Below are positions 2,911-48,464 of a DNA stretch of 64,000 nt, in pieces. A model generated the notes under the pieces. The model was not told the DNA's origin, did no database searches, and worked only from the letters and a program-made list of their open reading frames with translations. The position numbers and the translations under genes are program-made. The stretch comes from Candidatus Woesearchaeota archaeon (GTDB taxonomy: Archaea > Nanobdellota > Nanobdellia > Pacearchaeales > GW2011-AR1). Where the stretch lies: NCBI GenBank assembly GCA_964547875.1, contig CAZJPE010000001.1, positions 38,535 to 102,534 on the forward strand, given 5' to 3'. How positions within the stretch are numbered: the first letter of the stretch is position 1; the number at the start of each line of letters is the position of its first letter.

Positions 2911-2919
2911 TTTAATTTT

Positions 2920-3144
2920 ATGGCAGCTAAAATAAATTACATAGAAAAATTGATTGAATGGCATAAATACCCTATAAACGCATTTCTTCATCTTGTTGCA
3001 CTGATTATTTTAGTGATTGCCTTATGGTATCATAGCTGGATTGGGATTGTAATAGCGTTTGTTATTGCTTTAATAGGTCATTTGATTCAAGAAACATATA
3101 GCCATAAAGATAGAATTGACAAGCTTGAAAAGAAGAGAAGATGA
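2920..3144 (+). CDS. Small membrane protein (2 TM), hypothetical
   Basis: 74 aa, two hydrophobic helices. Confidence 0.4.
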   Translation: MAAKINYIEKLIEWHKYPINAFLHLVALIILVIALWYHSWIGIVIAFVIALIGHLIQETYSHKDRIDKLEKKRR

Positions 3145-3362
3145 GTGATAATCTTATTGGATTATAGAGAATTGAGTCCGCTTCGCTGACTTTGCAAGAT
3201 TAGCGGCTTTGCGTGAGTTTTAATCACATCTAGAAAAGTAAGACAATCTTCTAAAATTGTGTAAGATTATTCTTGCCGTTATTTATCCGTAATACCCTGT
3301 GATCTTGCCATAGTGATAAAGCTATAAGTTAACATAACTGACTATAGTAATTTATTACATTT

Positions 3363-4658: not shown

Positions 4659-4922
4659 TTTGTTACATTAAGATGTAACAAATAGTATATAAATGTTACG
4701 TTTTAGTGTAACTATAGTTTGAAGGTTGCGAAAACCGCTTCTAATAATTTTCTCTGAAGACTTACAAAAAACGCATGTTATCATTTTCACTCCTTCTCAT
4801 CGTGGAGGACATTTTATTATCAATCTATAGAAGACTTAATAGAATCTGTTGGATATATTGGCATAATAAGGATAACTTGGAAATACAAAAAGTATTAAAT
4901 ATCTCATTTCATTTTTTATCTC

Positions 4923-5603
4923 ATGAAAAGAGCAATTGTATTTTTGATTTTATTGTTAAATATAAATTTTTTTATTTCTTCTGTCAGCGCATTCGGAGTT
5001 GCAACTTTATATTCTGACAATTATCCTTTGAAAATGTATCCTGGAGAAACAAAAGAGACATTTTTTTTGTTGAGAAATGTTGTAGAGGGAGACGACGATG
5101 TTGTTATTAAGTCCGAACTTACGAGCGGGGCGGATATTGCCAAATTGATAGATGGGGCGAAGAGTTATGATGCCCCTTTTGGAAGCGAGATTGAAGTGCC
5201 TCTTAGCATAGAGATACCTAAAGAAGCAGTGATAGGGAGCGAGTATAGAATAGGGGCCATTTTCAGGCCAACTCCAACAAAGGTCGCAGGAGGAAATATT
5301 CAATTTATTATAAATATAGGAAAATCTTTTCCAGTTGTTATAATAGAGAAATCTAAACAAGCGAAGAAAGAGATTGAAACATATACAATAACACTTGAAG
5401 ATGATGGCGGAGTTGGAGGGGCATTTGCTCCGTTTATCAAGGGAGCAAAGGGTATTTGGCTCGGATTTATTTTTGGATTAATAGCAGGGATAATTATAGT
5501 GATAATGCTGATAATTTCTTTTACAATAAAAGCTGTAAAAAGAACTAGAGAATTAGCAGAAAACGATTTTATTCAGGCTGAGAATATTAGCAGACCATAT
5601 TAA
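4923..5603 (+). CDS. Surface protein with signal peptide and C-terminal TM anchor
   Basis: Signal peptide MKRAIVFLILLLNINFFISSVSA; C-terminal IWLGFIFGLIAGIIIVIMLIISF plus a basic tail. Confidence 0.5.
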   Translation: MKRAIVFLILLLNINFFISSVSAFGVATLYSDNYPLKMYPGETKETFFLLRNVVEGDDDVVIKSELTSGADIAKLIDGAKSYDAPFGSEIEVPLSIEIPKEAVIGSEYRIGAIFRPTPTKVAGGNIQFIINIGKSFPVVIIEKSKQAKKEIETYTITLEDDGGVGGAFAPFIKGAKGIWLGFIFGLIAGIIIVIMLIISFTIKAVKRTRELAENDFIQAENISRPY

Positions 5604-5868
5604 TGTTTTTTATTCATGTAGACTAGACCATAATTTTGTCTCTATACGAGATTTCGTTATTTTTGAAGATAAAATATCCCATCAAGATAACAATTATTAA
5701 GATTGCAAGCCAGAGAATAGCGGTTATTTTTTGATTCATGGAATGTTAAATCAGAGTTTATCTATAAATTTGCTCGTAAACGAAAGAAAATTACAACAAT
5801 TTAGATGACTTCATATTAACAGCTCACAATTCAGTAAGTCTTAAATAGATGATTTTATTATTTTAAGA

Positions 5869-7599: not shown

Positions 7600-7705
7600 C
7601 GAATATTGCCAGCAATGCGTGAAGATATTTTACTCTACATTTAAAATATCGGGACAATGTTTATAAACTTGTTTTACTCTACATAATTGTTTTTAAAAGA
7701 GGATA

Positions 7706-11989: not shown

Positions 11990-12220
11990 AAAAATTTAAT
12001 ATAGTATAGAACAAATGATACGATGTAGAGAAGAGTGGGAAGAGAGAGTATTAACTAAGCCGGTTGATTCCGCATTTGAGAGATTGCGAGTGGACTCGAG
12101 AAAAGCAAGATATACTTTTGAATATGTAAACTCTTTAAGATATACAGGCTTTGATTATAGAAATTCAAAGAAAGTTTTAATAAGACAAAATTATTTACTA
12201 ATAAGATAAAAGAGAGGAAA

Positions 12221-13399
12221 ATGAAACATAAAGCTGAAGATTTAGAGAAAGAAGAGATTAGGGATAAAAGAGAAAGGAAGCATAAAAAGGAAAAGCATGC
12301 AGGGCGTCATATAGAACATAAAAAACCAGAACATCACGAGCATAAGCATGTTAAACATCCTAAAGAAGAGAAAGATAAAAATAAGAAAAAGATAGAAAAG
12401 CCTGAGAGCGAGGAGGTTCATGCCAAGGACGAAAGGCCTAATAACGCGGAGATGAATAGATATTCTGAATTTATTTTTAGGATGAAAAAGGAGATTGCAA
12501 AGGTTATTACAGGACAGGAAAAGATTATTGATAGCCTTATAATGGCTTTGCTTTGTGATGGGCATGTTTTGCTAGAAGGCGTGCCTGGAATTGCAAAGAC
12601 ACTGGCTGTGAGAACCCTTGGCATAGCGAGCGGGTGCAGTGTTAAGAGAATACAATTTACAGTTGACTTGCTACCCACAGACATAACCGGCATAACTACT
12701 TATACTCCTGGAAAGGGATTTGAGACTATTAAAGGGCCCATTTTTGCTAATTTTATAATTGCTGACGAGATTAATAGAAGTCCGAGTAAGACGCAATCTG
12801 CTTTGATTGAGGCAATGCAGGAAACGCAGGTTACAATAGGGAAAGAGACTTTTAAATTGCCAACTCCATTTTTTGTCATGGCAACTGAAAATCCGCTTGA
12901 GCAGAGCGGGGTTTATACTTTGCCAGAAGCGCAGATAGACAGGTTTCTTTTTAAATTGCTAATGGGATATCCTACATATAACGAAGAGAAGAAGATAATG
13001 GAGGAGAATATGACATTAAAGAAATTTGAGGAATTTAATATAAGAGCAGTAATTTCTCCTAACGATATTTTAAAGGTGCAGAAGTTAACTAAAAAAGTTT
13101 ATTTAGACGACAAAATAAAAAGATATATTCTTGATATTGTAAAAAGAACAAGGACAAAGGATTTTAAGTATGGAGAGTATATTGAATGGGGCAGTTCGCC
13201 GAGAGCGAGCATATCATTGTTTATAGCCTCTAAAGCGAAGGCTTTAATGAGCAGGAGAAATTTTGTTATTCCGTCTGATGTCAAGGCGATTGTGCATGAT
13301 GTTATGAGGCATAGGATTATTTTGAATTATAGGGCAAGGGCAGAGGGTGTTGATAGCGACAAGATAATAAATGAAATTCTGACTGTGGAAAATATTTGA
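12221..13399 (+). CDS. MoxR-family AAA+ ATPase with a His/Lys-rich N-terminal extension
   Basis: Walker A LLEGVPGIAKT; Walker B IIADEINRSPSKTQSALIEAMQE. The N-terminal ~80 aa are K/E/H low complexity (EHKKPEHHEHKHVKHP). Confidence 0.85.
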   Translation: MKHKAEDLEKEEIRDKRERKHKKEKHAGRHIEHKKPEHHEHKHVKHPKEEKDKNKKKIEKPESEEVHAKDERPNNAEMNRYSEFIFRMKKEIAKVITGQEKIIDSLIMALLCDGHVLLEGVPGIAKTLAVRTLGIASGCSVKRIQFTVDLLPTDITGITTYTPGKGFETIKGPIFANFIIADEINRSPSKTQSALIEAMQETQVTIGKETFKLPTPFFVMATENPLEQSGVYTLPEAQIDRFLFKLLMGYPTYNEEKKIMEENMTLKKFEEFNIRAVISPNDILKVQKLTKKVYLDDKIKRYILDIVKRTRTKDFKYGEYIEWGSSPRASISLFIASKAKALMSRRNFVIPSDVKAIVHDVMRHRIILNYRARAEGVDSDKIINEILTVENI

Positions 13400-29956: not shown

Positions 29957-31168
29957 ATGACTCTTGAAGACCAATTAAATGAACTTAGAAGAGGAACAGT
30001 AGACATTCTCACAGAAGAAGAATTAGTCAGAAAACTAAAACAAAATAGACCTCTTAATGTTAAATTTGGAGTTGACCCTACAGCTCCAGATATTCATCTT
30101 GGCCATACTGTACCTTTACAAAAATTGAAACAATTTCAAGACTTGGGGCACAGTATACAACTTATTATTGGGGATTATACGGCAATGATTGGCGACCCTA
30201 GCGGAAGAACTGAGACAAGACCAACGCTAAGTAGAGAAGAAATAGAAAGTAATATGGAAACCTATCAAAGACAAGTCTTTAAGGTTTTAGACCCTGATAA
30301 AACTAATTTGATATATAATAGCCAGTGGTTAGAAAAATTTTCTGGAACTGATGTTATTAAATTAGGTTCAAAATATACTGTTCAGCAACTTTTGCAAAGG
30401 AGAGATTTTGGAGAAAGAATAAAACAAAATAGACCTCTTAATGTTACCGAATTGTTATATCCTCTTCTCGTTGGCTATGATTCTATACACCTTAGAAGCG
30501 ATGTAGAAATTGGAGGAACTGATCAATTATTTAATTTTATGGCAAGCAGAGAAATACAAAAAGCATATGGGCAGGAACCAGAAGTAATTATAACACTTCC
30601 TTTGCTTGAGGGGGTAGATGGCGTAAGGAAGATGAGTAAAAGTCTTGGAAATGCTATAGGTGTAAGTGATGATCCTAATGACATGTATGGAAAAATAATG
30701 TCTATATCTGATGATTTAATGTTAAAATATTATGAGTTATTATCTGAAACTCCTCTAGAAGAATTTCAAGAAATTAGAGCAGCTATTGCTTCTGGAAATG
30801 TAAACCCTATGAAATATAAACAAAGATTAGCAAGGGAAATAGTCTCAAGATATCATGGACAAAATTTTGCAATATCTGCTGAAGAAAGATTTAATGGGGT
30901 GCATAGAAAAAGAGATACGCCAAGCCAATTGGAAGAGGAGATAATAAAGTACTCTGCGCATGAAGAAAAACTTCCAATTGTTACAGTCCTCAGGCAAATT
31001 GGAAGAGCAAAATCTAACAGTGAAGCTAGAAGGCTTATAGAACAAGGAGGAGTAAAGTTGGGTGGAGAGGTTATAAATGACATTAATTACTTTGTTTCTC
31101 CTCAAGATGGTCAAGTTGTTCAAGTTGGAAAAAGGTATTTTAGAAGGTTAAAATATGAAACAGACTAG
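29957..31168 (+). CDS. tyrS: Tyrosyl-tRNA synthetase, bacterial type (with C-terminal S4 domain)
   Basis: GVDPTAPDIHLGHTVPL (HIGH) and VRKMSKSLGN (KMSKS); colinear with bacterial TyrRS; C-terminal S4-like RRLIEQGGVKLGGEVIND. Confidence 0.8.
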   Translation: MTLEDQLNELRRGTVDILTEEELVRKLKQNRPLNVKFGVDPTAPDIHLGHTVPLQKLKQFQDLGHSIQLIIGDYTAMIGDPSGRTETRPTLSREEIESNMETYQRQVFKVLDPDKTNLIYNSQWLEKFSGTDVIKLGSKYTVQQLLQRRDFGERIKQNRPLNVTELLYPLLVGYDSIHLRSDVEIGGTDQLFNFMASREIQKAYGQEPEVIITLPLLEGVDGVRKMSKSLGNAIGVSDDPNDMYGKIMSISDDLMLKYYELLSETPLEEFQEIRAAIASGNVNPMKYKQRLAREIVSRYHGQNFAISAEERFNGVHRKRDTPSQLEEEIIKYSAHEEKLPIVTVLRQIGRAKSNSEARRLIEQGGVKLGGEVINDINYFVSPQDGQVVQVGKRYFRRLKYETD

Positions 31169-31215
31169 TATTAATAAACAGATTTATAAATAAGTTTTTA
31201 TTTATCTAAATTAAG

Positions 31216-32349
31216 ATGGATTTCAAAGAAAAATTTGATTTAATAAAAAGGAATACTGAAGAAATTATGACTGAAGAAGATTTGAAAGTTCTTTTAGAGA
31301 GTGGAATTAAAGTTAAACATTATATTGGTTTTGAGATTTCTGGAAAGATTCATCTAGGTACGGGATTAATGTGCATGTCAAAAGTTAAAGACTTTATGGA
31401 TGCAGGAATTGATTGTTCAATTTTTTTAGCTGATTGGCATAGCTGGATAAATGATAAGCTTGGAGGAGATAGAGAAACAATAAAGAGAGTTGCTGGAGGA
31501 TATTTCAAAGAAGGGTTAAAAGCTAGTTTGAAATGTTTTGGAGGAAATCCTAATAAACTAAAATTTGTTCTAGGATCAGATTTATATCATAATAATGATG
31601 ATTATTGGTCCACTATGATAGAAGTTAGTAAAAATACTTCTCTTTCGAGGATGCAGAGAAGCATAACAATTATGGGAAGAAAAGAAGGAGGTTCAGTAGA
31701 TTTTGCAAAGTTGATCTATCCCCCTATGCAAGTTGCAGATATTTTTATCCAAGGAATAAATCTACCTCATGCGGGATTAGATCAAAGAAAAGCACAGGTT
31801 ATTGCAAGAGATGTTGCATTAAAAATAAAAAATAAACCTTTGTTAAATAAACAAAATGAATCAATGAAACCTGTTGCAGTTCATCATCATTTGATATTAG
31901 GGTTAGGGGAGCCACCAGTATGGCCCGTTCCAAAAGATCAACTCCAAGAACTGTGGCCTGCTCTAAAAATGAGTAAATCGAAACCAGATACATGTATATT
32001 TATTCATGATTCACCCGATGAGATTAGAAGAAAAATAAAACAAGCATTTTGTCTGGAGGGTGAAACAAAATTTAACCCCATTCTTGATTGGACAAAATAC
32101 CTTATTTTTAGAGATACGAACCCAAAATTAGAAATTAAAAGACCAGAAAAATTTGGTGGGAATATTACTTATACCTCCTATGAAAAGTTAGAAAGGGATT
32201 TTGCTGAAAAAAATCTTCACCCAATGGATTTGAAAAATGCAGTGGCAGAAAAATTAATCCAAATTCTTGAGCCAGCAAGGAAGCATTTTGAACAACCAAG
32301 GGTTAAAAAAATGCTTGAAGAGTTAGAGCAAATGATAATAATTAGATAA
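31216..32349 (+). CDS. Tyrosyl-tRNA synthetase, archaeal/eukaryotic type (HIGH motif degenerate to HLGT)
   Basis: Near-colinear with archaeal TyrRS: IKRNTEEI...YIGFEISGKIHLGTG, LADWHSWIN, KMSKSKP, IKRPEKFGGNITYTSYEKLERDFAEKNLHPMDLKNAVAEKLIQILEP. Recall-based comparison. Confidence 0.7.
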   Translation: MDFKEKFDLIKRNTEEIMTEEDLKVLLESGIKVKHYIGFEISGKIHLGTGLMCMSKVKDFMDAGIDCSIFLADWHSWINDKLGGDRETIKRVAGGYFKEGLKASLKCFGGNPNKLKFVLGSDLYHNNDDYWSTMIEVSKNTSLSRMQRSITIMGRKEGGSVDFAKLIYPPMQVADIFIQGINLPHAGLDQRKAQVIARDVALKIKNKPLLNKQNESMKPVAVHHHLILGLGEPPVWPVPKDQLQELWPALKMSKSKPDTCIFIHDSPDEIRRKIKQAFCLEGETKFNPILDWTKYLIFRDTNPKLEIKRPEKFGGNITYTSYEKLERDFAEKNLHPMDLKNAVAEKLIQILEPARKHFEQPRVKKMLEELEQMIIIR

Positions 32350-32370: not shown

Positions 32371-32889
32371 AATGGAAATTAAAAAGATAATCTTTGATAA
32401 AAAATATTATAGTTCTCTTATGAAGGAATTTGGTTATAATCCTTTAGAATTTGAAAAAATTAATTTTTCACTGGGAAATTTAAAAAAGACGACCTTCAAA
32501 GAATGTGGTTATGTCATCATGAAGGGGATAGTTTTGCTAGAGATCTAAAAAGAGGAAGAAAGCAGGATAAAACTTTACAACAAGCTATAAGACTCACAAA
32601 ACCAGGTGGCAAAATAATTGTTCTTGGAGTATTTGAAAAGAATTTTTTTGGTAAAATTCTTTTAAGAGATCTTTTTTATAAAGAAATAGAAATTATTGGC
32701 TCAAATTCTTATGGTTTTTTTAATGGGAAAAATGAATTTGCTATGGCAATAAGTTTGTTGAGAAAATTAAAAACAAGATTTTCAAAAATTATAACTCATA
32801 TAATCCCATTAAAAAACTTTAAAGAAGGATTAAACTTGATAAAAGATAAAAAAGATTCTGGAGTTATAAAAATAATATTAAAACCATGA
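32371..32889 (+). pseudogene. Decayed C-terminal fragment of a medium-chain (zinc-type) alcohol/threonine dehydrogenase
   Basis: Only the C-terminal Rossmann-end segment LTKPGGKIIVLGV...IEIIGSNSYG...ITHIIPLKNFKEGLNLIKDKKDSGVIKIIL is present. A frame break separates it from the short upstream ORF 32371-32500. Confidence 0.45.
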
Positions 32890-33005
32890 GTAAAATTAGA
32901 TGTTTTATATTTGACCAAGATGGCACTTTTTACCCAGAGGATAGTGAACTCACGAATACCTTAAGAAATAAAACAAAATTTCTAAATATCCCATCTTCTT
33001 TTTAA
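32886..33005 (+). pseudogene. N-terminal 39-aa stub of a HAD-superfamily hydrolase
   Basis: MSKIRCFIFDQDGTFY carries the HAD motif I DxDGT, then a stop after 39 codons. Confidence 0.35.
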
Positions 33006-37682: not shown

Positions 37683-40646
37683 ATGACAGAAAGAAAATTA
37701 ATTAAATTTATTTTGTCTAGTTTTATAATAGTTGTTTTAGTATTTTCTATTCCCGGAGTTATTGCCCCCTCACATCCTGATAATATAGATTTTATAATAG
37801 AAGATGTCGATACTATTATATATTATGAATGTGGAAGTATTGATGGCGCAATTGCTTCTTCAATTTCACATGACATGGGGATTCCTTCTTTTTGTGGCGA
37901 ACATGATTTGGTTCATGAAGATTTTTTAACTGAATTTAAAGATGATGGCTTATACGCAAATGTAAATAGAGTTGTTATTCTCGGTGGCGAGGCTGTTGTT
38001 CCTAGTGAAGTTCAGCAGGTTTTAGATATACATGGAGAAGTTGTTGGAGGATATGATACTTATAGAATAGAAGGAACAACTGCAACAGGAACTGCTGTTG
38101 AAGCTATTGAATATTTTTATGGTCCAGAGATGCTACAAGAAGTTACATTAGTTGCTTATGAAGGAGATTCTAATTCTGATTACAATGAAGTTCTGCATTT
38201 AGCTGCAGAATCAGATGGAGGTATTATTATTCCTGTTCCATCTGATGCTAATGGTTTGCCTGCGGAGGTTGTTGAAACTTTAGATACAATTAACCCAGAT
38301 GAAAGTATGACTATTAATATAATAGGAGATTTTGAGCAAGAAGCAATTGTAAAAGATGACATCCAAGAAATAGGAGCTGTAGTAGAAACAGAAATAGACG
38401 GAACTAATCCTGAGGTTGTTGAAGAGCAAGTAGAAGAGTTAGTAATAGAAAATATTCAGCCTGGAGAGTCAGTTGATATAGTTTATGTTGAAGAGGGAAG
38501 CCAGCCTCCTGTTGTGCAAGATGAAATAGTTATATTTTATACAGATGAAAATAATGATGGTATAGATGACGAAAGCGGAAGCGCTTTAGACGACATTGGA
38601 GTAGGATTATATAATGAGTTAATTGAAAAAGGAGCAAGCGTAGATGATATTAAATGTACTGGCAGTCATACTTCTGTTTGGGCTGATTTTGAGGTAGAAA
38701 TAGAGGGAAGAGGAGAGTTAGTTGAGGTGGTAGAATATACAAATGCAGAAGATTTAATTGGAATTGAGCTGACTACTGATAAGGAACAGGCGGAAGAGAT
38801 TTCTAATGAATTTAAAGAAGAGGAAGATGAATGGGCAGAATTAGCAGAACAGCATAAGGCAGAATTTGGAGCAGCACTGCCTTCTATGATTGAGCAGTTT
38901 AAGGCGTATTATATTGAAATAAAAGATACATTATCTCCAGAGGCTTTGGAACTAGCTAATAAAATAATAGACGAGGGAAATAAAGGGGATTCTGTAGCGC
39001 AATGGCAATTAATGCATGCTTTTGCTAATTCTTATGAGCATGAAGAATACGTTGAGAATTGCCATACTGATGAGGCTTGCAGAAACGAACATGTAGAGAT
39101 GGAATATTTGAATACTGAAGATGCTCTTGTTGAATTTGTTGGAACTGATAGGGCTGGAGAAATTACTAATTTAGATTTTGGAACTAAGGTTAAATTATTG
39201 GGGATGGATGATTTTGTCCCTCCTACGCCTGAAGAAGAAAGTGCGTTTAAGGCAGATATAACTGAAATCTTAGCAACCGGAGCAAGCATAGAGAGTTTAC
39301 CAGCTGAATATGTTAATGAAGTTAAGGGAGAGGCTTATTCTATATATGCTGAAGAATTGAAGAGCGAATATGAGGCAGCCGGTAGGACAACTGAAGCAGC
39401 TGCTTTAACTCCTGAAGAAGTAGCGAGAATATTTGATGATAGATTAGTTGTTGAGAGTGAGGCTTATTTGTCTGGACTTGTAAGCCATGAAGATTTTGCA
39501 GACCCTGCTAAGAGGGCAGAGACTATGGCAAAGATGGAGAGTATTCATAGCGAATTTGAGAGCAAAGGCGTTACAGAAAATTATTATTTGACACCTGAAT
39601 ATTGGAAAGAGGCTTATAATAAATATACTACAGATGGGACTTTGCCAGAGAATTTTGTTAAAGAATGCGAAGCAGCTGTATCTAGTTATAGGACATGGGA
39701 AGAAGCTTATCCAGGGGTTTCTTATGATCCTCGTGACTCATTCTATAATGCAAAGACCGGACAGTTTAGTTATACAGATCATGAAAATAGGGTTGTGTCA
39801 GGAGTTTATGACGGAACTGAAGGAACTTACACATTTACTAATGAAAATGGCGAATTAGTGCAGGGAACTGATGTAGGAGAGGTGAATAAGTATACAGGCG
39901 ATTATGGAGGATGGACTTTTGATAAAAGCTCTGGCTCATGGAAAGGACCAGGCGGAGAGACATATATACCCCCATCTGTTTATAATCCTGTTACAGGAAC
40001 ATATGATTACCACCCTTCTTCAGGCGAACATAGCGATGTCGATGGTTATATTTATCAATGGGGAAGCAAGGGACTTTCTGGAGGAATTTATACTGGGCCA
40101 GGCTCGGCATGGACTGCTCCTGAAGGATGGACACAGAGTTCTGATGGAACATGGACAAGTTCTGATGGACAGACATATTCTGCAAGCACATCTTATTATA
40201 GTCATTCTGGCAGCGAAGGATTTAAGAGCAGTGGAGAGGTATGGACACAGAGTTCTGATGGAACATGGACAAGTTCTGGAGGAGCAACTTATTCTGGCTA
40301 TCACGATAGTGGATCTTATAGTTATGTTTCTCCTTCTGGCGAGAGTTATAGTGGAGGAACATATAGTGGTAGCGAAACCGGGACATATGGCCCAGCAGCA
40401 GGTACAACACAGATAGATCCCTCGGGAAATACATGGACACAGAGTTCTGATGGAACATGGACAAGTTCTACTGGGGAAACATCTAGTGTGGGAACATCTA
40501 CTGGAGGAACAACAACATCCGGGACGACAGATAGTGGAGGTGGATCTGCTCCTAGCGGTGGGGATGGTGGCGGTGGAATGACAGGACATGCAATATATGA
40601 CTCTTCGTTAACAAGAAGCTGGTTAGGTAGATGGCTTTTGGGCTAA
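37683..40646 (+). CDS. Large (987 aa) highly acidic secreted protein with C-terminal WTQSSDGTWTSS repeats
   Basis: Signal/TM start; Glu/Asp-rich; repeats near 40125-40500; terminal SWLGRWLLG. Confidence 0.6.
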   Translation: MTERKLIKFILSSFIIVVLVFSIPGVIAPSHPDNIDFIIEDVDTIIYYECGSIDGAIASSISHDMGIPSFCGEHDLVHEDFLTEFKDDGLYANVNRVVILGGEAVVPSEVQQVLDIHGEVVGGYDTYRIEGTTATGTAVEAIEYFYGPEMLQEVTLVAYEGDSNSDYNEVLHLAAESDGGIIIPVPSDANGLPAEVVETLDTINPDESMTINIIGDFEQEAIVKDDIQEIGAVVETEIDGTNPEVVEEQVEELVIENIQPGESVDIVYVEEGSQPPVVQDEIVIFYTDENNDGIDDESGSALDDIGVGLYNELIEKGASVDDIKCTGSHTSVWADFEVEIEGRGELVEVVEYTNAEDLIGIELTTDKEQAEEISNEFKEEEDEWAELAEQHKAEFGAALPSMIEQFKAYYIEIKDTLSPEALELANKIIDEGNKGDSVAQWQLMHAFANSYEHEEYVENCHTDEACRNEHVEMEYLNTEDALVEFVGTDRAGEITNLDFGTKVKLLGMDDFVPPTPEEESAFKADITEILATGASIESLPAEYVNEVKGEAYSIYAEELKSEYEAAGRTTEAAALTPEEVARIFDDRLVVESEAYLSGLVSHEDFADPAKRAETMAKMESIHSEFESKGVTENYYLTPEYWKEAYNKYTTDGTLPENFVKECEAAVSSYRTWEEAYPGVSYDPRDSFYNAKTGQFSYTDHENRVVSGVYDGTEGTYTFTNENGELVQGTDVGEVNKYTGDYGGWTFDKSSGSWKGPGGETYIPPSVYNPVTGTYDYHPSSGEHSDVDGYIYQWGSKGLSGGIYTGPGSAWTAPEGWTQSSDGTWTSSDGQTYSASTSYYSHSGSEGFKSSGEVWTQSSDGTWTSSGGATYSGYHDSGSYSYVSPSGESYSGGTYSGSETGTYGPAAGTTQIDPSGNTWTQSSDGTWTSSTGETSSVGTSTGGTTTSGTTDSGGGSAPSGGDGGGGMTGHAIYDSSLTRSWLGRWLLG
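40129..40480 (+). repeat. Three near-identical 36-nt copies (tggacacagagttctgatggaacatggacaagttct) encoding WTQSSDGTWTSS
   Basis: Copies at ~40129, ~40243 and ~40436 seen directly. Reverse-strand ORFs here (40020-40589) are spurious Cys/Ser-rich mirror frames. Confidence 0.6.
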
Positions 40647-42293: not shown

Positions 42294-44183
42294 ATGACAG
42301 ACAAAAAAGATTATTCTGCAGAGAAGATTCAAGTATTAGAGGGGCTTGAAGCAGTTCGCAAACGTCCTGCTATGTATATAGGCAGCACTGGCAAGAGTGG
42401 ATTGCATCACCTAGTTTACGAAGTTGTTGATAATTCTGTTGACGAGGCAATGGTTGGATATTGTACAGAGATTGAAGTTATCTTGAATAAAGACGGAAGC
42501 GTGACTGTTATTGATAATGGTAGAGGCATTCCAGTTGATGTACATCCCATTTATAAAAGGCCTGCTTTAGAAATTGTCGTGACTAAATTACATGCTGGCG
42601 GGAAGTTTGACAAAGGAGTATATAGTGTATCAGGAGGCTTGCATGGAGTTGGAATAAGCGTAGTTGCTGCTTTATCCAAGCACATGGAAGTTATTGTAAA
42701 AAGAGGGGGCAAGAAATACAAGCAAGAATATAAAATCGGAAAGCCATTATATGACGTAAAAGTTGTTGGAGAGTCTTCAAAAGACGAGAGAGGGACAGAG
42801 GTTAGTTTTCTTCCTGATGATAGCATTTTTTCTGTTAGCAAATTTGATTTTTCTGTCTTAGAGACAAGATTTAGAGAGATTGCCTTTTTGAATAAAGGAT
42901 TGAAAATAATTTTGAAGGATGAAGCAACTGAAAAAAAAGAGGTATTTTGCTATGAAGGAGGCATTGTAGAATTTGTCAAATGGCTTAACAAGTCAAAGGA
43001 GTCTTTGCATAAAGCTATTTATTATTTAAAAGAAGACAGCGGAGTTATAGTTGAGTGCACTGTTCAGTACAATTCTGGCTATCAAGAGAATGTTTTGGGA
43101 TTTGTAAACACAATTAACACAGTAGAGGGGGGAACTCATATTATTGGCTTTAAGACTGCTTTGACAAGAGCGATTAATGATTATGCAAATAAGAATAAAT
43201 TGCTTAAGGATGGAAATTTAACTGGAGATGATGTCCGCGAGGGATTGACTGCTATTATTTCTACTAAAGTTCCAGAGCCGCAATTTGAGGGGCAGACAAA
43301 GACTAAATTAGGGAATAGCGAAATTAAAGGAATTGTTGATAAGATAAGCATGGCGGCTTTATCTGAATTTTTTGAGGAAAATCCTCCTATTGCAAGAAGG
43401 ATTGTTAATAAAGCATTAGAGGCGCAGAAAGCAAGAGATGCTGCGAAAAAAGCTAAAGAGCTAGTTAGGAGAAAGAGCGCATTTGGAGGGGGAGGTTTGC
43501 CTGGCAAATTAGCTGATTGCTCTGATAAAAAAGCTGAGAATACAGAATTATTTATTGTTGAGGGAGATAGCGCAGGAGGTTCGGGGAAACAGGCAAGAAA
43601 TAAAGAAAATCAAGCTATACTGCCTTTGAAAGGAAAGATATTAAATGTGGAGAAAGCAAACGCTGTGAAAGTATTGAGCAATGAAGAAATTTCTTCATTG
43701 ATTACTGCAATCGGGACAAGCATGGGCGAGCAGTTTGACATAACAAAATTAAGATATTCAAAAATAATTATTATGACTGATGCTGATGTTGACGGGGCGC
43801 ATATTAGGACTTTGTTGTTGACTTTTTTCTACAGATTTGTGCCTGACTTGGTTAAGAATGGAAATATCTACATTGCTGTCTCGCCTTTGTATAGAGTGAG
43901 AAAGAGAGGAGACCATTATATTTATTCTGACGAAGAGCTTAAGGAGATTAAGCAGAAGCTAGGGCATAATATTGACGTGCAGAGGTTTAAGGGACTTGGT
44001 GAGATGAATCCCCAGCAATTATGGGAGACAACTATGAATCCCAGAACAAGATTGCTGAAAAAAGTAACTGTTGAAGACGCTGCGCTGGCAGACGAGGTAT
44101 TTTCAAGATTAATGGGCGATGATGTTGAAGCGCGCAGGCAGTTTATTGCTTCTCGCGCGCATGAAGCAGAGGTGGATATTTGA
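42294..44183 (+). CDS. gyrB: DNA gyrase subunit B
   Basis: GLHHLVYEVVDNSVDEA (GHKL ATPase), EGDSAGG, PLKGKILNVEKA, KGLGEM (TOPRIM); 629 aa. Confidence 0.9.
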   Translation: MTDKKDYSAEKIQVLEGLEAVRKRPAMYIGSTGKSGLHHLVYEVVDNSVDEAMVGYCTEIEVILNKDGSVTVIDNGRGIPVDVHPIYKRPALEIVVTKLHAGGKFDKGVYSVSGGLHGVGISVVAALSKHMEVIVKRGGKKYKQEYKIGKPLYDVKVVGESSKDERGTEVSFLPDDSIFSVSKFDFSVLETRFREIAFLNKGLKIILKDEATEKKEVFCYEGGIVEFVKWLNKSKESLHKAIYYLKEDSGVIVECTVQYNSGYQENVLGFVNTINTVEGGTHIIGFKTALTRAINDYANKNKLLKDGNLTGDDVREGLTAIISTKVPEPQFEGQTKTKLGNSEIKGIVDKISMAALSEFFEENPPIARRIVNKALEAQKARDAAKKAKELVRRKSAFGGGGLPGKLADCSDKKAENTELFIVEGDSAGGSGKQARNKENQAILPLKGKILNVEKANAVKVLSNEEISSLITAIGTSMGEQFDITKLRYSKIIIMTDADVDGAHIRTLLLTFFYRFVPDLVKNGNIYIAVSPLYRVRKRGDHYIYSDEELKEIKQKLGHNIDVQRFKGLGEMNPQQLWETTMNPRTRLLKKVTVEDAALADEVFSRLMGDDVEARRQFIASRAHEAEVDI

Positions 44184-44750: not shown

Positions 44751-47700
44751 ATGACAGAAGAAAATAACGAAAAGAAAATTGACGAAGCGATTGAGGAAAA
44801 GGAAAGAGAGAGAAGGAAGAAGGACATGATTGAGAATGGCGTTCAGGGAACTGAAATAGTTGAGGAGATGGAAAAATCTTACATTGATTATGCGATGTCT
44901 GTGATTGTGCAAAGGGCGCTGCCTTCTGTTGAAGATGGCTTGAAACCAGTGCATAGAAGAATTTTGTATTCAATGGAGCAGCTTGGGCTTGATGCTTCAA
45001 AGCCTACAAAAAAATCTGCTACTATTGTAGGAGATGTTATTGGAAAATATCATCCTCATGGAGACATTGCTGTTTATGATGCGCTTGTTAGATTAGCGCA
45101 GGATTTTTCTTTGCGCTATCCTCTTGTGCATGGGCAAGGAAATTTTGGCTGCTTCACAGCAGATACAAAAGTTAAACTTGCTGATGGCAGAGATTTATCT
45201 TTTATTGAGTTGATTGAAGAAAACAATAATGGGAAAAGGAATTTCACATTTACAATAGATAATGGCATTGTTAAAATAGCAGAAGTAAAAAATCCTAGAA
45301 TGACTAAAAAAAATGCAGAGATTATGAAAGTTTTTCTTGATAATGGTCAGGAAATCAAATGTACATTAAATCATTTATTTATGTTAAAGGATGGAAGCTA
45401 TAAAGAAGCAAGAAATCTAAAATCTGGGGACTCGTTGATGCCTCTTTATACGAAACTATCTACTGAAACTGACAGCCTAAAGAATCCAAAAACCATTGGC
45501 TATTCGATGATATTTCAGCCAAAATTAAAATCTTGGAATTTTATTCATATATTGGCTGATGAGTGGAATTTAGATAATAAAATATATGCAGTAAATTCTG
45601 GCAGAATAAGACATCACATTGATTTTAATAAGTTAAATAATAATCCTATAAATATCAAAAGAATGCATTGGAAAGAGCATTGGCAGACACATTACAATTT
45701 AACTTCTTCAAGACATAAAAATGATTTAGATTATAGAAAGAAATTGGAAGAGGGAAGGAGAAGGTTTTGGAGCGACGCTAAAAATCGAGAAGTTTATTCT
45801 CAAAGAATGACTGAAAGAAATTTAGAGAATTGGAAAAAAAGCAGTTATAGAGAAGAAAAACGCATTCAACTTAGTGAAATTAATAAAAAATATTTTAAAG
45901 AGAATCCAGAAGCTATAGAAATAATAAGAAAAAGAGCTTCTATAACTATGAAAAAAATGTGGGAAATTCCAAGATATAAAGAACTTTTTCATGAAAAAAT
46001 TGTCGCTTCTAATAAAAATAGAAAATCAAATCTAACTGGAAAAAAGAAATTTTTAAAGATATGTAATTATTTGCTGACTAAGAATTTACCATTAACAAAA
46101 GAAAATTTTGAAAATATTAGACAAAATATTTTTGGAATAAAAAGCTTTACCAGTTGGAATCATGGAATTAAAAAACATTTTAATGGAGATAAAAATTTAA
46201 TTTTAAATGAATTAAATGGGAATCATAAGGTTGTAGATATAGAATTTATCAATCAACATACTAGCGTTTACGATCTAACAATTGATGATACGCATAATTT
46301 TGCCCTTTCGGCAGGGATTTTTGTGCATAATTCATTAGACGGAGATTCAGCTGCAGCCTATAGATATACAGAAGCACGATTGAGTAAAATCTCTCAAGAG
46401 CTTTTGGCAGACATTGACAAAGAAACTGTCAAGATGAATCCGAATTTTGATAATTCTACAAAAGAACCAGAGACATTGCCTGCTAAACTGCCTAATCTCT
46501 TACTAAATGGGGCGACTGGAATAGCAGTCGGCATGGCTACTAACATACCTCCGCATAATTTGATAGAGTTGTGCGATGCTATTATTGCGTATATTGACAA
46601 TTCAGATGTCAGTATAGATGAACTTTTGCAGATTGTTAGAGGACCTGATTTTCCAACTGGAGGACATGCAATGGGGCCTGGAATTTTAGAGATGTACAAA
46701 ACAGGAAAAGGAAGGATAGTCATGAGAGCTAGAACCTCAATAGAGGAGAAAAAGGGAAGAGAAAACATAATTGTTACAGAGATTCCTTATATGGTTAACA
46801 AGGCAGAGCTGGTTAAGGATATTGCGAGGCTTGCAAGCGAGAAGAGATTGTCTGACATTTCTGACATATGGGATGAATCTGCAAAGGGAAAGATAAGAAT
46901 TGTTATCGAATTGAAGAAAGGCGTTGATTCAAAATATACGATAAACAGATTATACAAATTGACTAATATGCAGACTAATTTTGACGCTAATGTTTTAGCC
47001 TTGGTTGGCAAACAGCCGAGAGTGCTGAATTTGAGGGATGTTATTGTTGAGTATGTTAAATACAGAAGAATGATTGTTACTAATAGAAGTAAGTTTGAAT
47101 TGAAGAAAGCAGAAGATAGATTAGAAATTGTTCTCGGATTATTGATAGCCTTAAAGAATATAGATAGCATTGTTGAGCTTATAAAAAAGAGCAAGACAGT
47201 CAGCGAAGCGCATGAAGGGCTTATGAAGAAATTTGATTTTAGCGACAGACAGGCAAGGGCTGTTTTAGAGACGAAATTGCAGCAGCTTACTTCATTAGAG
47301 CACACAAAATTAAAGGAAGAGGAGCAGAAGCTGAAAGAGACAATAGAATATCTGAAAAATGTTTTGGGCTCTGACAAAGAGATTTTGAAAATTATCAAGA
47401 AAGAGGTTAATGAGCTGAAGAAGGAATATGGAGATGAGAGGAGGACTAAGATCGTGAGAAAGATTGATGAAATTTCTGAAGGCGACTTGATTGAGAAAAA
47501 AGACGTTGTTGTTATGCTGACAAATTCTGGATATATCAAGAGAGTTGATCTTAAGACTTATAAAGAGCAGAAAAGAGGAGGGGCAGGCGTTATGGGTACG
47601 GGATTAAAGGATGATGATTTTGTGAGAAAGATGATTAGCTGTTCAACTCATGATTATTTGCTGTTCTTTACAAAAAGAGGCAGAGTTTACTGGCTTAAGG

Positions 47701-48464
47701 CGCATGACGCTCCTGCTGCAGAAAGACAGGGTAAAGGAAGAAGCATTGCAAACTTACTGAATTTAAGAGAGGAGGCAATTGCCAATGTTATGGCTATTAC
47801 TAACTTTGAATCTGGGTATTTAATGTTTGCTACAAAATTAGGAATTGTGAAGAGGCTGCCTTTAAAGGATGTTTCTAATCCCAGAAGCACGGGAGTTAGA
47901 ATAATGAATCTGCCTGCTGACGGGAGTGACGAGATAATTAATGTCAGCAGAGTAGAGGATGGGCAGGAAGTATTGATTATCACAAAGAAAGGACAGGCTA
48001 TTAGATTTAATTCCAATGATGTTAGGGCTATGGGTAGAGCGAGTTATGGAGTCAAAGGAATTGATTTAGCAAAGAATGATTTAGTTGTTTCTTTAATGGC
48101 TGTTCCTAAAGATGGAAAGACAACTGTTCTAACACTAACGGAAAAGGGATTTGGGAAGAGGTCTGATATTGTGGAATATAGAAAAACTGCGAGAGCTGGA
48201 AAGGGCGTTATTAATTTAAAGACAAATGACAAGACAGGAAGCGTTATTGCATCTGTAGCTGTGAATGACAAAGATTCTGTTATTATTACTACAACAAAAG
48301 GCAATATTATAAGAATTCCAATGAAGGACTTGAGGGTTATGGGGCGAGCAACTCAGGGAGTGAGAGCTGTAAAGCTCAAGGAAGGAGATAAGGTTGCCGA
48401 TGTTGTTCGAGTCCCTGTAATGATTGAAGACTCTCGTTTTGCTGATATGTTTAGTAATCTTTAA
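44751..48464 (+). CDS. gyrA: DNA gyrase subunit A interrupted by an in-frame intein (extein ~843 aa)
   Basis: [23 protein letters not shown], catalytic Tyr in [32 protein letters not shown]-terminal beta-pinwheel repeats. A 394-aa insertion sits between GQGNFG and SLDGDS. Confidence 0.9.
45150..46331 (+). mobile_element. Intein (394 aa) with HNH-type homing endonuclease inside gyrA
   Basis: Starts with Cys ([13 protein letters not shown], block A); block [13 protein letters not shown]-like [24 protein letters not shown]; blocks [24 protein letters not shown] followed by Ser+1. Confidence 0.85.

What the first reader, a model, noticed from the sequence alone, without database searches (positions are those of the whole stretch)
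29957..32349. Two tyrosyl-tRNA synthetases side by side: a bacterial-type TyrS with S4 domain, then an archaeal-type TyrRS whose HIGH motif reads HLGT
Gene 1 is colinear with bacterial TyrRS (DPTAPDIHLGH, KMSKS, C-terminal S4). Gene 2 is colinear with archaeal/eukaryal TyrRS, including the C-terminal IKRPEKFGG...HPMDLKNAVAE...ILEP block and KMSKS. But the second His of HIGH is replaced (KIHLGTGL), and the gene has insertions relative to ~310-aa archaeal enzymes. No TrpRS is evident here. This could be a horizontally acquired bacterial enzyme taking over while the archaeal copy degenerates or neofunctionalises, or the reverse.
Basis: partly seen in the sequence, partly recalled or inferred. Interest (0 to 1): 0.55.

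Follow-up and report, generated by a model that had tools for sequence, protein, structure and literature searches.

The report
Housekeeping TyrRS plus orphaned bacterial-type TyrRS
A DPANN archaeon carries its normal tyrosyl-tRNA synthetase next to an extra, bacterial-derived one that has an altered substrate pocket and tRNA-end contacts; the extra gene is the only intact survivor of a mobile gene module that deletions destroyed in this genome.

Summary
In detail: two intact TyrRS genes lie 47 bp apart (29957-31168 and 31216-32349). The interpretation of gene 2 is wrong. HLGT is the consensus of its family (118/120 relatives, and the solved P. horikoshii enzyme 2cyc, ~65% identical). The "insertions" are also family-typical. 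This TyrRS stands alone among housekeeping genes in other Nanoarchaeia.

Gene 1 is the unusual one. It is a Thermus/TyrZ-class bacterial TyrRS in a monophyletic, archaeal-labelled 68-sequence clade. The clade keeps HIGH, KMSKS, the anticodon-reading Asp and the S4 domain. It has replaced the universally conserved alpha-ammonium ligand Gln (Bst Gln173) with Val, and several acceptor-end contacts (Tth Glu154 to Gln, Bst Glu152 to Arg, Tth Arg198 to Leu).

In all 10 informative archaeal neighbourhoods, and in 0 of 71 bacterial ones, this gene is linked to a block: a TrpRS-like paralogue (X), a TrpD-like phosphoribosyltransferase, a Zn-dehydrogenase and a HAD phosphatase, often with HIT. In the window that block is wreckage (a 2,643-bp microhomology deletion, a frameshift and a truncated HAD gene). 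Gene 1 remains under purifying selection (dN/dS about 0.10).

Best reading: an accessory TyrRS retuned to the host's tRNA-Tyr, possibly an orphaned immunity gene.

The parts
29957..31168 (+). Gene 1: accessory bacterial-type (Thermus/TyrZ 'non-canonical' class) tyrosyl-tRNA synthetase, 403 aa. It has a catalytic domain, an alpha-helical anticodon-binding domain and an S4-like domain. Clade-specific residues are Gln143, Gln144, Gln147, Arg149, Val172, His178, Leu191, Phe194, Ser197, Glu209 and Asn283.
   Evidence: TIGR00234 368 bits vs cutoff 114; Pfam PF00579, PF01479, PF22421. Best solved relatives are 6bqy (1e-115), 6byq and 1h3e (8.5e-95). Clade and diagnostic substitutions. dN/dS 0.09-0.12.
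31169..31215 (+). 47-bp spacer with a TATA-like box TTTATAAATA (31183-31192, i.e. -33 to -24 from the gene 2 ATG). The spacer is conserved in relatives even where a different TyrRS type follows.
   Evidence: Sequence read. Alignment A1 with L002, L003 and L070. Promoter function is inferred, not shown; the genome is AT-rich.
31216..32349 (+). Gene 2: the lineage's housekeeping archaeal TyrRS, long (about 375-aa) Thermococcales/Nanoarchaeia subtype, 377 aa. HIGH motif = HLGT (family consensus); KMSKS; Tyr pocket YPPMQVAD.
   Evidence: NF006330 433 bits vs cutoff 220. 2cyc E 1e-142 over residues 1-361. More than 100 relative clusters at 77-90% identity. Motif census. Stand-alone housekeeping context in L089 and L090.
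32372..32562 (+). X': remnant (codons about 4-67) of the module's TrpRS-like class-Ic paralogue. It has a +/-1 frameshift in an A-run at about 32482-32488.
   Evidence: tblastn to X of L002: 86% over codons 8-42 (one frame) and 70% over codons 35-67 (another frame). X-family HMM hits E 1e-16 and 5e-10. Nucleotide view.
32554..32889 (+). 'ADH: the C-terminal 111 codons of the module's Zn-dependent dehydrogenase, fused in frame to X' at a shared GGA AGA AAG (Gly-Arg-Lys) microhomology. The listed ORF 32503-32889 is therefore an X'::'ADH chimera. Relative to L002/L070, 2,643 bp are missing: the rest of X, all of the TrpD-like gene, and ADH codons 1-221.
   Evidence: 79% identity to ADH codons 222-332 of L002. 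Junction and deleted length. dN/dS 0.38-0.39 vs L002/L070, against 0.12-0.16 among intact copies.
32886..33005 (+). HAD': the first 31 codons of the module's HAD-family phosphatase. Similarity then ends and a stop follows at codon 40.
   Evidence: 81% identity to codons 1-31 of the L002 HAD gene; translation.

Best explanation
The window comes from a DPANN archaeon (Nanoarchaeia; Woesearchaeota/Pacearchaeota-labelled relatives).

Gene 2 is its ordinary housekeeping TyrRS. HLGT is the normal signature motif of this long archaeal subfamily.

Gene 1 is an accessory enzyme:
- It descends from a bacterial Thermus/TyrZ-class TyrRS that entered archaea as part of a mobile gene module. The module consists of a bacterial-type TyrS, often a HIT hydrolase, a TrpRS-like paralogue X, a TrpD-like phosphoribosyltransferase, a Zn-dehydrogenase and a HAD phosphatase.
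- In this genome deletions have destroyed the module's other genes. Gene 1 is intact and still under purifying selection.

Shown:
- Gene 1 keeps everything needed to make Tyr-AMP (HIGH, KMSKS, Asp80, Tyr168, Asp175, Gln190) and to hold tRNA-Tyr (Asp252, the G34 reader; the anticodon-binding and S4 domains).
- All clade members have replaced the alpha-ammonium ligand Gln with Val.
- They have also changed the acceptor-end surface: Tth Glu154 to Gln, the Bst Glu152 equivalent to Arg, and Tth Arg198 to Leu.

Inferred:
- No tRNA-Tyr gene travels with the module, so the acceptor-end changes re-tuned the enzyme from bacterial G1-C72 tRNA-Tyr to the host's C1-G72 tRNA-Tyr. Gene 1 would then work as a second, structurally unrelated tyrosine-charging enzyme.
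- The favoured but unproven reason for keeping it is that it acts as an inhibitor-insensitive back-up or immunity TyrRS for a compound made by the module. It would be retained here as an orphan immunity gene after the biosynthetic genes were lost.
For: Gene identities.

HLGT is normal: 118/120 relatives, plus 2cyc and 7fg6. Gene 2's type stands alone among housekeeping genes elsewhere.

Gene 1's clade:
- 65+3 sequences, monophyletic in an NJ tree of 187 sequences, with no named bacterial genome inside.
- The nearest bacterial proteins are about 50% identical.

Diagnostic substitutions:
- Val172 in 67/68 clade members vs Gln in 119/119 outside the clade. Leu191 in 68/68. Also A143Q, R144Q, E147Q and D149R.
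- Mapped onto 1h3e and Bst numbering.
- Roles of Gln173/Tyr169/Asp78 and of Tth Arg198 come from PMC1934993. The role of Bst Glu152 comes from PMC9976931.

tRNA-binding modules are conserved: Asp252 in 68/68, and C-terminal domains at least as conserved as in bacteria.

Module linkage: 10/10 archaeal neighbourhoods vs 0/71 bacterial loci. At least 31 shared contig lengths between the gene 1 and X families.

Module decay in the window.

Selection: gene 1 has omega 0.09-0.12 and no rate acceleration. The ADH stump has omega about 0.38.

No tRNA-Tyr gene in 19 loci.

Precedents:
- Bacterial-type TyrRS that lost 1-72 discrimination: human mitochondria and the Plasmodium apicoplast.
- An extra aaRS and HIT hydrolases as self-immunity in aaRS-inhibitor clusters.
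- The core cassette lies next to MFS, NRPS and PPTase genes in a Bacillus, and is flanked by transposases in CPR contigs.
Against: - No biochemical data exist. Whether gene 1 charges C1-G72 tRNA-Tyr, or any tRNA, is inferred.
- The host's tRNA-Tyr gene was not seen; only 84 kb of a 290-kb contig was readable.
- Loss of the alpha-ammonium Gln could instead mean a different substrate.
- No exporter or obvious toxin-type gene was found in the archaeal copies of the module.
- The module's chemistry is unknown, and DPANN genomes rarely carry biosynthetic clusters.
- The CPR version of the module's TyrS keeps Gln and may simply be that bacterium's only TyrRS.
- The omega contrast between gene 1 and the ADH stump rests on few substitutions (about 27 non-synonymous and 16 synonymous) and is not statistically firm.
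- The tree is neighbour-joining only.
- Taxonomic labels of short MAG contigs (Heimdall-, Thor-, Bacteroidota-labelled) may be wrong.
- My recollection that Tth Glu154 contacts G1 could not be confirmed in the held literature.
Confidence: 0.6

Rival explanations
1. Gene 1 is not a translational enzyme. Together with X it is an amino-acid-activating component of a small-molecule or RNA-modification pathway encoded by the module, analogous to MshC or Glu-Q-RS. Its substrate would be a tyrosine analogue bound without the Gln contact. In this genome it would be a relic that has simply not decayed yet.
For: - Strict linkage to the X/TrpD-like/ADH/HAD block.
- Loss of a ligand conserved in all three domains.
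- Loss of the A73-reading Arg/Lys.
- A canonical TyrRS is present in the same locus.
- The cassette occurs beside NRPS genes in Bacillus.
Against: - The full anticodon-binding and S4 domains and the G34-reading Asp are conserved as strongly as in true TyrRS.
- Asp80 and Tyr168, the other two alpha-ammonium ligands, are invariant.
- Gene 1 shows no relaxation of constraint (omega 0.10, equal branch length) although its supposed partners are destroyed and the ADH stump shows raised omega.
- The Bacillus cassette works without any TyrS.
Confidence: 0.2
2. Plain functional redundancy. Two interchangeable TyrRS are kept for differential regulation or stress, like tyrS/tyrZ in Bacillus subtilis. Under this view the module linkage is only inherited synteny with no functional meaning.
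For: - Both genes are intact and conserved.
- Gene 1 belongs to the TyrZ class, and bacteria with TyrS plus TyrZ are known (PMC1934993).
- Gene 2 has its own conserved promoter-like box.
Against: - Linkage to the block persists across gene 1 divergence down to about 60% identity, across gene-order rearrangements (divergent orientation in L084) and across differently labelled phyla. Passive synteny does not explain that.
- Clade-wide replacement of catalytic-pocket and tRNA-contact residues argues for changed properties.
Confidence: 0.13
3. One reading: the archaeal copy (gene 2) is degenerating or neofunctionalising because its HIGH motif is damaged, and the bacterial enzyme is taking over tyrosine charging.
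For: Only the departure of HLGT from the textbook HIGH, and the extra length compared with 306-aa enzymes.
Against: - HLGT is the consensus of the family and of crystallised enzymes.
- 105 of 377 positions are invariant across 120 relatives, and KMSKS and the Tyr pocket are intact.
- The same enzyme is the stand-alone TyrRS in related genomes that show no gene 1 within 8 kb.
Confidence: 0.03
4. Artefact: gene 1 is bacterial contamination or an assembly chimera on an archaeal contig.
For: Gene 1 is of bacterial type, and MAG contigs can be chimeric.
Against: - The same gene order (gene 1, conserved spacer, a TyrRS, the block) recurs in at least 8 independent assemblies.
- GC is uniform across the region.
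- Downstream synteny with L070 (Kae1, L7Ae) is preserved.
- Gene 1 is only about 50% identical to any named bacterial genome.
Confidence: 0.02

Closest known systems
Pyrococcus horikoshii TyrRS (PDB 2cyc) and the long archaeal TyrRS subfamily (also 7fg6; 2cya from A. pernix)
   Same: Gene 2 aligns end to end with 2cyc (E 1e-142, about 65% identity). It shares the same HLGT motif, the same insertion relative to M. jannaschii TyrRS, KMSKS, and the C-terminal RPxKFGG...HPxDLKNAVAE block.
   Different: Nothing of note. It is an ordinary member. Only its position, inside a slot of a foreign module, is unusual.
Thermus thermophilus TyrRS (1h3e) / TyrZ-class 'non-canonical' bacterial TyrRS (6bqy, 6byq)
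   Same: Gene 1 has the same domain order. It has Lys in place of the pocket Tyr34, which is typical of this class. It also shares HIGH, KMSKS, the G34-reading Asp and the S4-like domain.
   Different: Clade-wide differences: Gln179(Tth)/Gln173(Bst) to Val, Glu154(Tth) to Gln, the Glu152(Bst) equivalent to Arg, and Arg198(Tth) to Leu. The hosts are archaea, whose tRNA-Tyr has C1-G72 and no long variable arm.
Human mitochondrial and Plasmodium apicoplast TyrRS
   Same: These are bacterial-type TyrRS with an S4-like domain. They work on tRNA-Tyr that departs from the bacterial identity rules and no longer discriminate the 1-72 pair (PMC9976931, PMC6310243). This precedent shows the retuning proposed for gene 1 is feasible.
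   Different: They are the sole organellar enzymes, not extra copies beside an archaeal-type TyrRS. No Gln173 loss is reported in the texts read.
Archaeal/eukaryal-type TyrRS and TrpRS in CPR bacteria (Mukai et al. 2017, PMC5370408)
   Same: [quoted passage not shown] Non-canonical TrpRS-like paralogues occur in operons with unknown partners.
   Different: That paper describes the opposite direction, with archaeal enzymes in bacteria. It does not describe a bacterial-type TyrRS clade in archaea or the X/TrpD-like/ADH/HAD block. I could not test whether X equals their 'TrpRS-A-like'.
Self-immunity aaRS copies and HIT hydrolases in aaRS-inhibitor gene clusters (albomycin abmK, agrocin 84 agnB2, microcin C MccH)
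   Same: An extra aaRS, divergent from the housekeeping one, is physically linked to biosynthetic-looking genes (phosphoribosyltransferase, dehydrogenase, phosphatase, amino-acid-activating enzyme). A HinT-like HIT gene is often present too.
   Different: No product, target or exporter is known for this module. The hosts are tiny-genome DPANN/CPR organisms. In the window only the putative immunity gene survives.

Membership tests
Bacterial-type tyrosyl-tRNA synthetase (TIGR00234 tyrS; TyrZ/Thermus class), for gene 1 | Whole-protein HMM score above the curated cutoff | tested here: met
   368 bits vs cutoff 114.
Bacterial-type tyrosyl-tRNA synthetase (TIGR00234 tyrS; TyrZ/Thermus class), for gene 1 | [quoted passage not shown] | tested here: met
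   HLGH at 47-50 and KMSKS at 225-229, invariant in 63/63 clade members scored.
Bacterial-type tyrosyl-tRNA synthetase (TIGR00234 tyrS; TyrZ/Thermus class), for gene 1 | C-terminal alpha-helical anticodon-binding domain plus S4-like domain, with the G34-reading Asp (Tth Asp259) | tested here: met
   Pfam S4 and SYY_C-terminal. Asp252 in 68/68, and domain conservation at or above the bacterial level.
Bacterial-type tyrosyl-tRNA synthetase (TIGR00234 tyrS; TyrZ/Thermus class), for gene 1 | Complete tyrosine/alpha-ammonium pocket (Bst Asp78, Tyr169, Gln173, Asp176, Gln195) | tested here: not met
   Asp80, Tyr168, Asp175 and Gln190 are present, but the Gln173 equivalent is Val172 (67/68 in the clade; Gln in 119/119 outside it). 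It is a sequence-family member with one defining ligand replaced.
Bacterial-type tyrosyl-tRNA synthetase (TIGR00234 tyrS; TyrZ/Thermus class), for gene 1 | Acceptor-end contacts of the bacterial enzyme (Tth Arg198 to A73; acidic residues at Tth 154 / Bst 152) | tested here: not met
   Leu191, Gln147 and Arg149 replace them throughout the clade.
Bacterial-type tyrosyl-tRNA synthetase (TIGR00234 tyrS; TyrZ/Thermus class), for gene 1 | Tyrosylation of tRNA-Tyr | not testable with these tools
   Needs enzyme assays. No tRNA-Tyr gene was found in the readable DNA.
Archaeal tyrosyl-tRNA synthetase (NF006330), for gene 2 | Whole-protein HMM score above the curated cutoff, full-length colinearity | tested here: met
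   433 bits vs cutoff 220, covering residues 1-367 of 377. 2cyc E 1e-142.
Archaeal tyrosyl-tRNA synthetase (NF006330), for gene 2 | Signature motifs as found in active family members (first His of HIGH; KMSKS) and the Tyr pocket Tyr/Gln/Asp | tested here: met
   HLGT matches 2cyc and 118/120 relatives. KMSKS in 120/120. YPPMQVAD conserved.
Archaeal tyrosyl-tRNA synthetase (NF006330), for gene 2 | Recognition of C1-G72 / charging of archaeal tRNA-Tyr | not tested
   Individual contact residues were not mapped. This is inferred from about 65% identity to a crystallised archaeal enzyme.
   Best TrpRS scores are 86 bits (cutoff 177) and 53 bits (cutoff 451). Gene 2 is not a TrpRS.
Self-immunity aaRS of an aaRS-inhibitor gene cluster, for gene 1 | Extra aaRS copy alongside a housekeeping enzyme of the same specificity | tested here: met
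   Gene 1 plus gene 2 in the window. The partner TyrRS is present in 8 related loci.
Self-immunity aaRS of an aaRS-inhibitor gene cluster, for gene 1 | Physical linkage to biosynthetic genes | tested here: inconclusive
   Linkage to the X/TrpD-like/ADH/HAD block is strict (10/10 vs 0/71). The cassette abuts NRPS/MFS genes in Bacillus. It is not shown that the block is biosynthetic, and in the window it is deleted.
Self-immunity aaRS of an aaRS-inhibitor gene cluster, for gene 1 | Lower sensitivity to the cluster's product than the housekeeping enzyme | not testable with these tools
   The product is unknown. This requires heterologous expression and inhibition assays.

The most novel reading that the evidence does not exclude
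The module (TrpRS-like X, TrpD-like phosphoribosyltransferase, Zn-dehydrogenase, HAD phosphatase, with or without HIT) makes an aminoacyl-nucleoside or adenylate-mimic inhibitor of archaeal/eukaryal-type TyrRS (or TrpRS). It circulates among DPANN archaea, CPR bacteria and others.

Gene 1's clade is its immunity determinant: a bacterial TyrRS naturally re-engineered to charge archaeal tRNA-Tyr while escaping the inhibitor, with Gln to Val in the adenylate pocket.

The window would then show an orphan immunity gene kept after the toxin genes were lost. It would also be a natural enzyme that breaks the bacterial/archaeal TyrRS-tRNA orthogonality exploited in genetic-code expansion.
Probability: 0.25. 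Interest if true: 0.85.

Novelty: new variant of a known kind. Interest (0 to 1): 0.6.

Why it matters
Bacterial and archaeal/eukaryal TyrRS-tRNA-Tyr pairs do not cross-react because of the G1-C72 versus C1-G72 identity pair. That barrier is thought to block cross-domain transfer of TyrRS, and it underlies genetic-code-expansion technology.

Here a whole clade of bacterial-type TyrRS persists under purifying selection inside archaea. No bacterial tRNA-Tyr travels with it, and it has a compact, testable set of substitutions on exactly the acceptor-end surface. It could therefore show how nature crosses that barrier.

The clade-wide loss of an alpha-ammonium ligand conserved in all three domains, together with the strict linkage to an uncharacterised five- or six-gene mobile module containing a second divergent class-Ic synthetase, points to either a new resistance mechanism or a new non-canonical use of aaRS paralogues in ultra-small symbionts.

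Tried and rejected
1. TrpRS identity for gene 2: rejected.
2. HLGT as a lesion: rejected by the census and solved structures.
3. A riboswitch/T-box or other RNA element near the genes: Rfam finds only tRNA-Asp in the window.
4. A co-transferred tRNA-Tyr: none in the window or in 19 related loci.
5. 'Substitutions mark the module rather than the archaeal host': partly rejected. The CPR module's TyrS is only about 40% identical and keeps Gln172, although it shares Leu191.
6. Relaxed selection on gene 1 after module loss: not seen.
7. Literature support for Tth Glu154 contacting G1: not found in the held library. PMC1370743 is not held, and the DOI look-up failed on a short search term. This point remains my recollection only.
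8. The DPANN protein-family paper PMC8204110 does not mention synthetases.
9. The sigma-70 promoter scan was not used because the host is archaeal. The TATA-like box is offered only as a conserved motif.
10. Structure prediction was not run. Gene 1 and gene 2 are 55-65% identical to solved structures, and the tool returns no coordinates for mapping pockets.
Full report
**1. Observation**

ORF listing confirms two same-strand genes, 29957-31168 (403 aa) and 31216-32349 (377 aa), separated by 47 bp.
- Gene 1 scores 368 bits on the bacterial TyrRS model TIGR00234 (cutoff 114). It carries the catalytic tRNA-synt_1b domain, an S4 domain and the TyrRS C-terminal domain.
- Gene 2 scores 433 bits on the archaeal TyrRS model NF006330 (cutoff 220). 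Every TrpRS model falls far below its cutoff.
- An HMM scan of all reading frames with profiles of three class-Ic families finds no further synthetase in the 64 kb, apart from a stump described in section 5.
- The window contains one tRNA gene (Asp) and no other Rfam match.

**2. Host**

The closest relatives of both proteins come from metagenome-assembled genomes labelled Nanoarchaeota, Nanoarchaeia, Woesearchaeota or Pacearchaeota. The identical proteins lie on a 290-kb contig. GC is uniformly low at 0.27-0.39. L7Ae and Kae1 genes lie downstream. The host is a DPANN archaeon.

**3. Gene 2 is ordinary**
- It aligns end to end with the solved Pyrococcus horikoshii TyrRS 2cyc (E 1e-142). That enzyme itself reads IHLGTGL, and 7fg6 reads VHLGTGI.
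- The segment absent from the 306-aa M. jannaschii enzyme (about residues 203-250) is present in 2cyc, 7fg6 and 2cya.
- Among the 120 best relatives (77-100% identity, 360-383 aa), the motif is HLGT in 118, KMSKS in 120 and the pocket motif YPPMQVAD in 103. In all, 105 of 377 positions are invariant.
- In other Nanoarchaeia genomes the same enzyme (80-86% identical) stands alone among housekeeping genes (FtsZ, ribosomal protein S6e, thermosome, AspRS/GatB). No bacterial-type TyrS lies within 8 kb.

HLGT is the family signature, not damage. Gene 2 is the lineage's housekeeping TyrRS.

**4. Gene 1 is the atypical enzyme**

Class and clade:
- Its best solved relatives are 6bqy (1e-115), 6byq and Thermus thermophilus 1h3e (8.5e-95). 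These belong to the 'non-canonical' TyrZ/Thermus class.
- Its Lys36 at the position of Bst Tyr34 is normal for that class (bioRxiv 10.64898/2026.05.28.728509).
- In a neighbour-joining tree of 187 unique sequences (database hits plus TyrS genes extracted from named genomes), gene 1 falls in a 65-member clade with a 3-member sister group. No named bacterial genome falls inside.
- The nearest bacterial sequences (Halanaerobiales, Desulfuromonadales, Syntrophorhabdus and others) are 47-53% identical.

What the clade keeps:
- HIGH, KMSKS, Asp80, Tyr168, Asp175 and Gln190 are invariant.
- So is Asp252, the equivalent of Tth Asp259, which reads anticodon base G34.
- The anticodon-binding and S4 domains are at least as conserved as in bacteria.

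What the clade changed:
- Twelve positions are fixed differently from the bacterial consensus, and ten of them lie between residues 143 and 197.
- The alignment to 1h3e (Tth = gene 1 + 7) and to the B. stearothermophilus sequence carries the classical numbering. I recalled the Bst sequence from memory and checked it against 14 known residue numbers.
- Val172 replaces Bst Gln173/Tth Gln179. Leu191 replaces Tth Arg198. Gln147 replaces Tth Glu154. Arg149 replaces the equivalent of Bst Glu152.
- Gln173, with Tyr169 and Asp78, hydrogen-bonds the alpha-amino group of Tyr-AMP. Its equivalents are conserved in all three domains. Tth Arg198 reads N3 of the discriminator A73 (PMC1934993).
- Bst Glu152 repels non-cognate tRNAs electrostatically (PMC9976931).
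- Outside the clade and its sister group, Gln is found in 119 of 119 sequences. Inside, Val is found in 67 of 68.

**5. Gene 1 belongs to a module that is dead in this window**

The module in relatives:
- In every archaeal neighbourhood with enough flank (L002, L003, L005, L006, L007, L008, L009, L070, L082/83, L084/85), the gene 1 relative is linked to a block of tightly packed, often overlapping genes.
- X is a 351-359-aa class-Ic homologue with PHIGT and KMSKS motifs. It resembles TrpRS only remotely (93 bits vs cutoff 451; best structure 3a04 at 1e-9).
- The other genes are a TrpD-like phosphoribosyltransferase (150 bits vs cutoff 199; best structure E 1e-23), a Zn-dependent dehydrogenase and a HAD phosphatase.
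- A HinT-like HIT gene is often present.
- None of the 71 bacterial loci has any of these genes.
- The X family has 278 members. NCBI names them 'hypothetical protein'. At least 31 of them share a longest-contig length with a gene 1-clade protein.
- The position between the TyrS and X is a variable slot:
  - a eukaryote-like TyrRS in L002, L003, L004, L005, L009 and L070;
  - the long archaeal TyrRS in the window and L006;
  - HIT in L082-85;
  - GTP cyclohydrolase IIa plus a B12-radical-SAM gene in L007 and L008.

The wreckage in the window:
- X survives as codons about 4-67 (32372-32562), with a frameshift in an A-run.
- It is fused across a GGA-AGA-AAG microhomology to codon 222 of the dehydrogenase. 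This is a 2,643-bp deletion that removed the TrpD-like gene entirely.
- The HAD gene stops matching after 31 codons.
- The annotated-looking ORF 32503-32889 is therefore a chimera.
- Downstream genes (DUF192, Kae1, L7Ae) are syntenic with L070, so the module's position is inherited.

**6. Selection**
- Gene 1's dN/dS against five relatives is 0.09-0.12, the same as among relatives with intact modules (0.09-0.13).
- Its distances to the outgroups equal theirs: 0.246 vs 0.241-0.259, and 0.303 vs 0.294-0.306.
- The dehydrogenase stump gives 0.38-0.39 against L002/L070, while intact copies give 0.12-0.16 among themselves. This rests on only about 27 non-synonymous and 16 synonymous changes.

This suggests, without proving, that gene 1 has stayed under constraint for some time after its neighbours died.

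**7. Mechanism**

Shown: gene 1 has the equipment of a tRNA-Tyr-binding, tyrosine-activating enzyme. Its changes are concentrated at the alpha-amine pocket and the acceptor-end surface.

Inferred: no tRNA-Tyr gene accompanies the module in 19 loci. Archaeal tRNA-Tyr has C1-G72 and no long variable arm (PMC5370408). The acceptor-surface changes are therefore best read as retuning to the host tRNA. Human mitochondrial and apicoplast TyrRS are precedents: bacterial-type enzymes that lost 1-72 discrimination.

Why keep a second TyrRS? These features match the logic of aaRS-inhibitor clusters:
- the strict module linkage;
- the frequent HIT gene;
- the core cassette beside MFS, NRPS and PPTase genes in Bacillus pseudomycoides;
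- the transposase-flanked copy in CPR contigs;
- the pocket substitution.

In such clusters an insensitive extra aaRS (abmK, agnB2) and HIT hydrolases (MccH) provide self-immunity (PMC8323819). On that reading the window holds an orphan immunity gene. I rate this specific reading at about 0.25-0.3. I rate the broader statement (an accessory, module-derived, still-functional TyrRS beside a normal housekeeping TyrRS) at about 0.6 as a whole, with its descriptive parts much higher.

**8. Rivals**
- A non-translational role with X is weakened by the conserved tRNA-binding apparatus and by continued constraint after module loss.
- Plain redundancy does not explain the linkage or the pocket change.
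- Contamination is excluded by recurrence in at least 8 assemblies and by the conserved spacer.

**9. Comparison with the known, and novelty**
- Gene 2 is an already-known kind.
- Gene 1 is a member of the bacterial TyrRS sequence family, but it fails two feature tests: the complete alpha-ammonium pocket and the bacterial acceptor contacts.
- The held literature describes archaeal-type TyrRS in CPR bacteria (PMC5370408). I found no description of a bacterial-type TyrRS clade resident in archaea, nor of the X/TrpD-like/ADH/HAD module.
- I classify the finding as a new variant of a known kind.

**10. Limits**
- No assays were possible.
- Only 84 kb of the 290-kb contig was readable.
- The tree is neighbour-joining only.
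- MAG taxonomic labels are uncertain.
- The role of Tth Glu154 rests on memory.

Noticed in passing
L002 11259-12272; also L003 11261-12274, L004 1527-2540, L005 11239-12282, L009 1607-2620, L070 8624-9637: In the closest relatives the slot after the bacterial-type TyrS holds a 337-347-aa TyrRS instead of gene 2's type. Its best structural matches are eukaryotic cytoplasmic TyrRS (human 1n3l/5thh, E 1e-99). In all six, the first His of the HIGH position is Ser (GSIS[IV]AY vs human GKPHVAY), while KMSSS and the Tyr pocket are kept.
   Followed up: partly
window 31169-31260 vs L002 11213-11304, L070 8578-8669 (alignment A1): The spacer and TATA-like box upstream of the slot gene are conserved although the TyrRS type behind them differs, which implies an in-place exchange. 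The first ~39 nt of L070's eukaryote-like gene resemble the window's gene 2 more than they resemble L002's orthologue, hinting at a recombination breakpoint just inside the ORF.
   Followed up: partly
L086 (Bacillus pseudomycoides NVOL01000123.1) 1435-12487: The core cassette X / TrpD-like / Zn-ADH / HAD occurs in a Bacillus record without any TyrS. It is followed by an MFS transporter, NRPS modules and a phosphopantetheinyl transferase, and preceded by a radical-SAM/SPASM gene.
   Followed up: no
L087 6220-12957; L088 309-6269: Magasanikbacteria-type contigs carry X / TrpD-like / ADH / a 404-aa non-canonical TyrS (KQSKS instead of KMSKS; Gln172 kept) / HIT, flanked by Y1 and HTH transposase genes. 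L087 also has a tRNA-Trp(CCA) 1.7 kb upstream of X.
   Followed up: partly
L007 11212-15685; L008 3801-8255: In two more distant loci (labelled Methanosarcinales and Bacteroidota; L008 has GC 0.50) the slot holds a GTP cyclohydrolase IIa-like gene, a B12-binding radical-SAM gene and three minus-strand genes including HIT. The archaeal-type cyclohydrolase suggests the Bacteroidota label is a binning error.
   Followed up: no
window 32554-32886 vs 29957-31165: Synonymous divergence from L002 is much lower for the dehydrogenase stump (dS 0.29) than for gene 1 (dS 0.72). This may be noise from 111 codons, or it may reflect different histories (recombination) of the two segments. Unexplained.
   Followed up: no
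window 42294-44183 and 44751-48464: Bacterial-type DNA gyrase: gyrB, and a gyrA interrupted by an intein. N- and C-terminal splicing regions were detected; the intein spans about residues 134-528 of the 1237-aa product.
   Followed up: no
window 57827-59182 and 59693-61051 (- strand): Two adjacent genes encoding proteins with an RHS repeat-associated core domain (polymorphic-toxin-like), separated by a 173-aa ORF.
   Followed up: no
window 7706-11989: A 1427-aa ORF with a weak tandem-95-repeat match, likely a large surface protein. A 987-aa ORF at 37683-40646 has no NCBIfam match.
   Followed up: no
protein P0210: A gene 2-type TyrRS cluster (80% identical, 41 member sequences, 10 contigs) is labelled 'Caldisericia bacterium' by NCBI. 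This is either mis-binning or transfer of the archaeal enzyme into bacteria, as described for CPR by Mukai et al.
   Followed up: no
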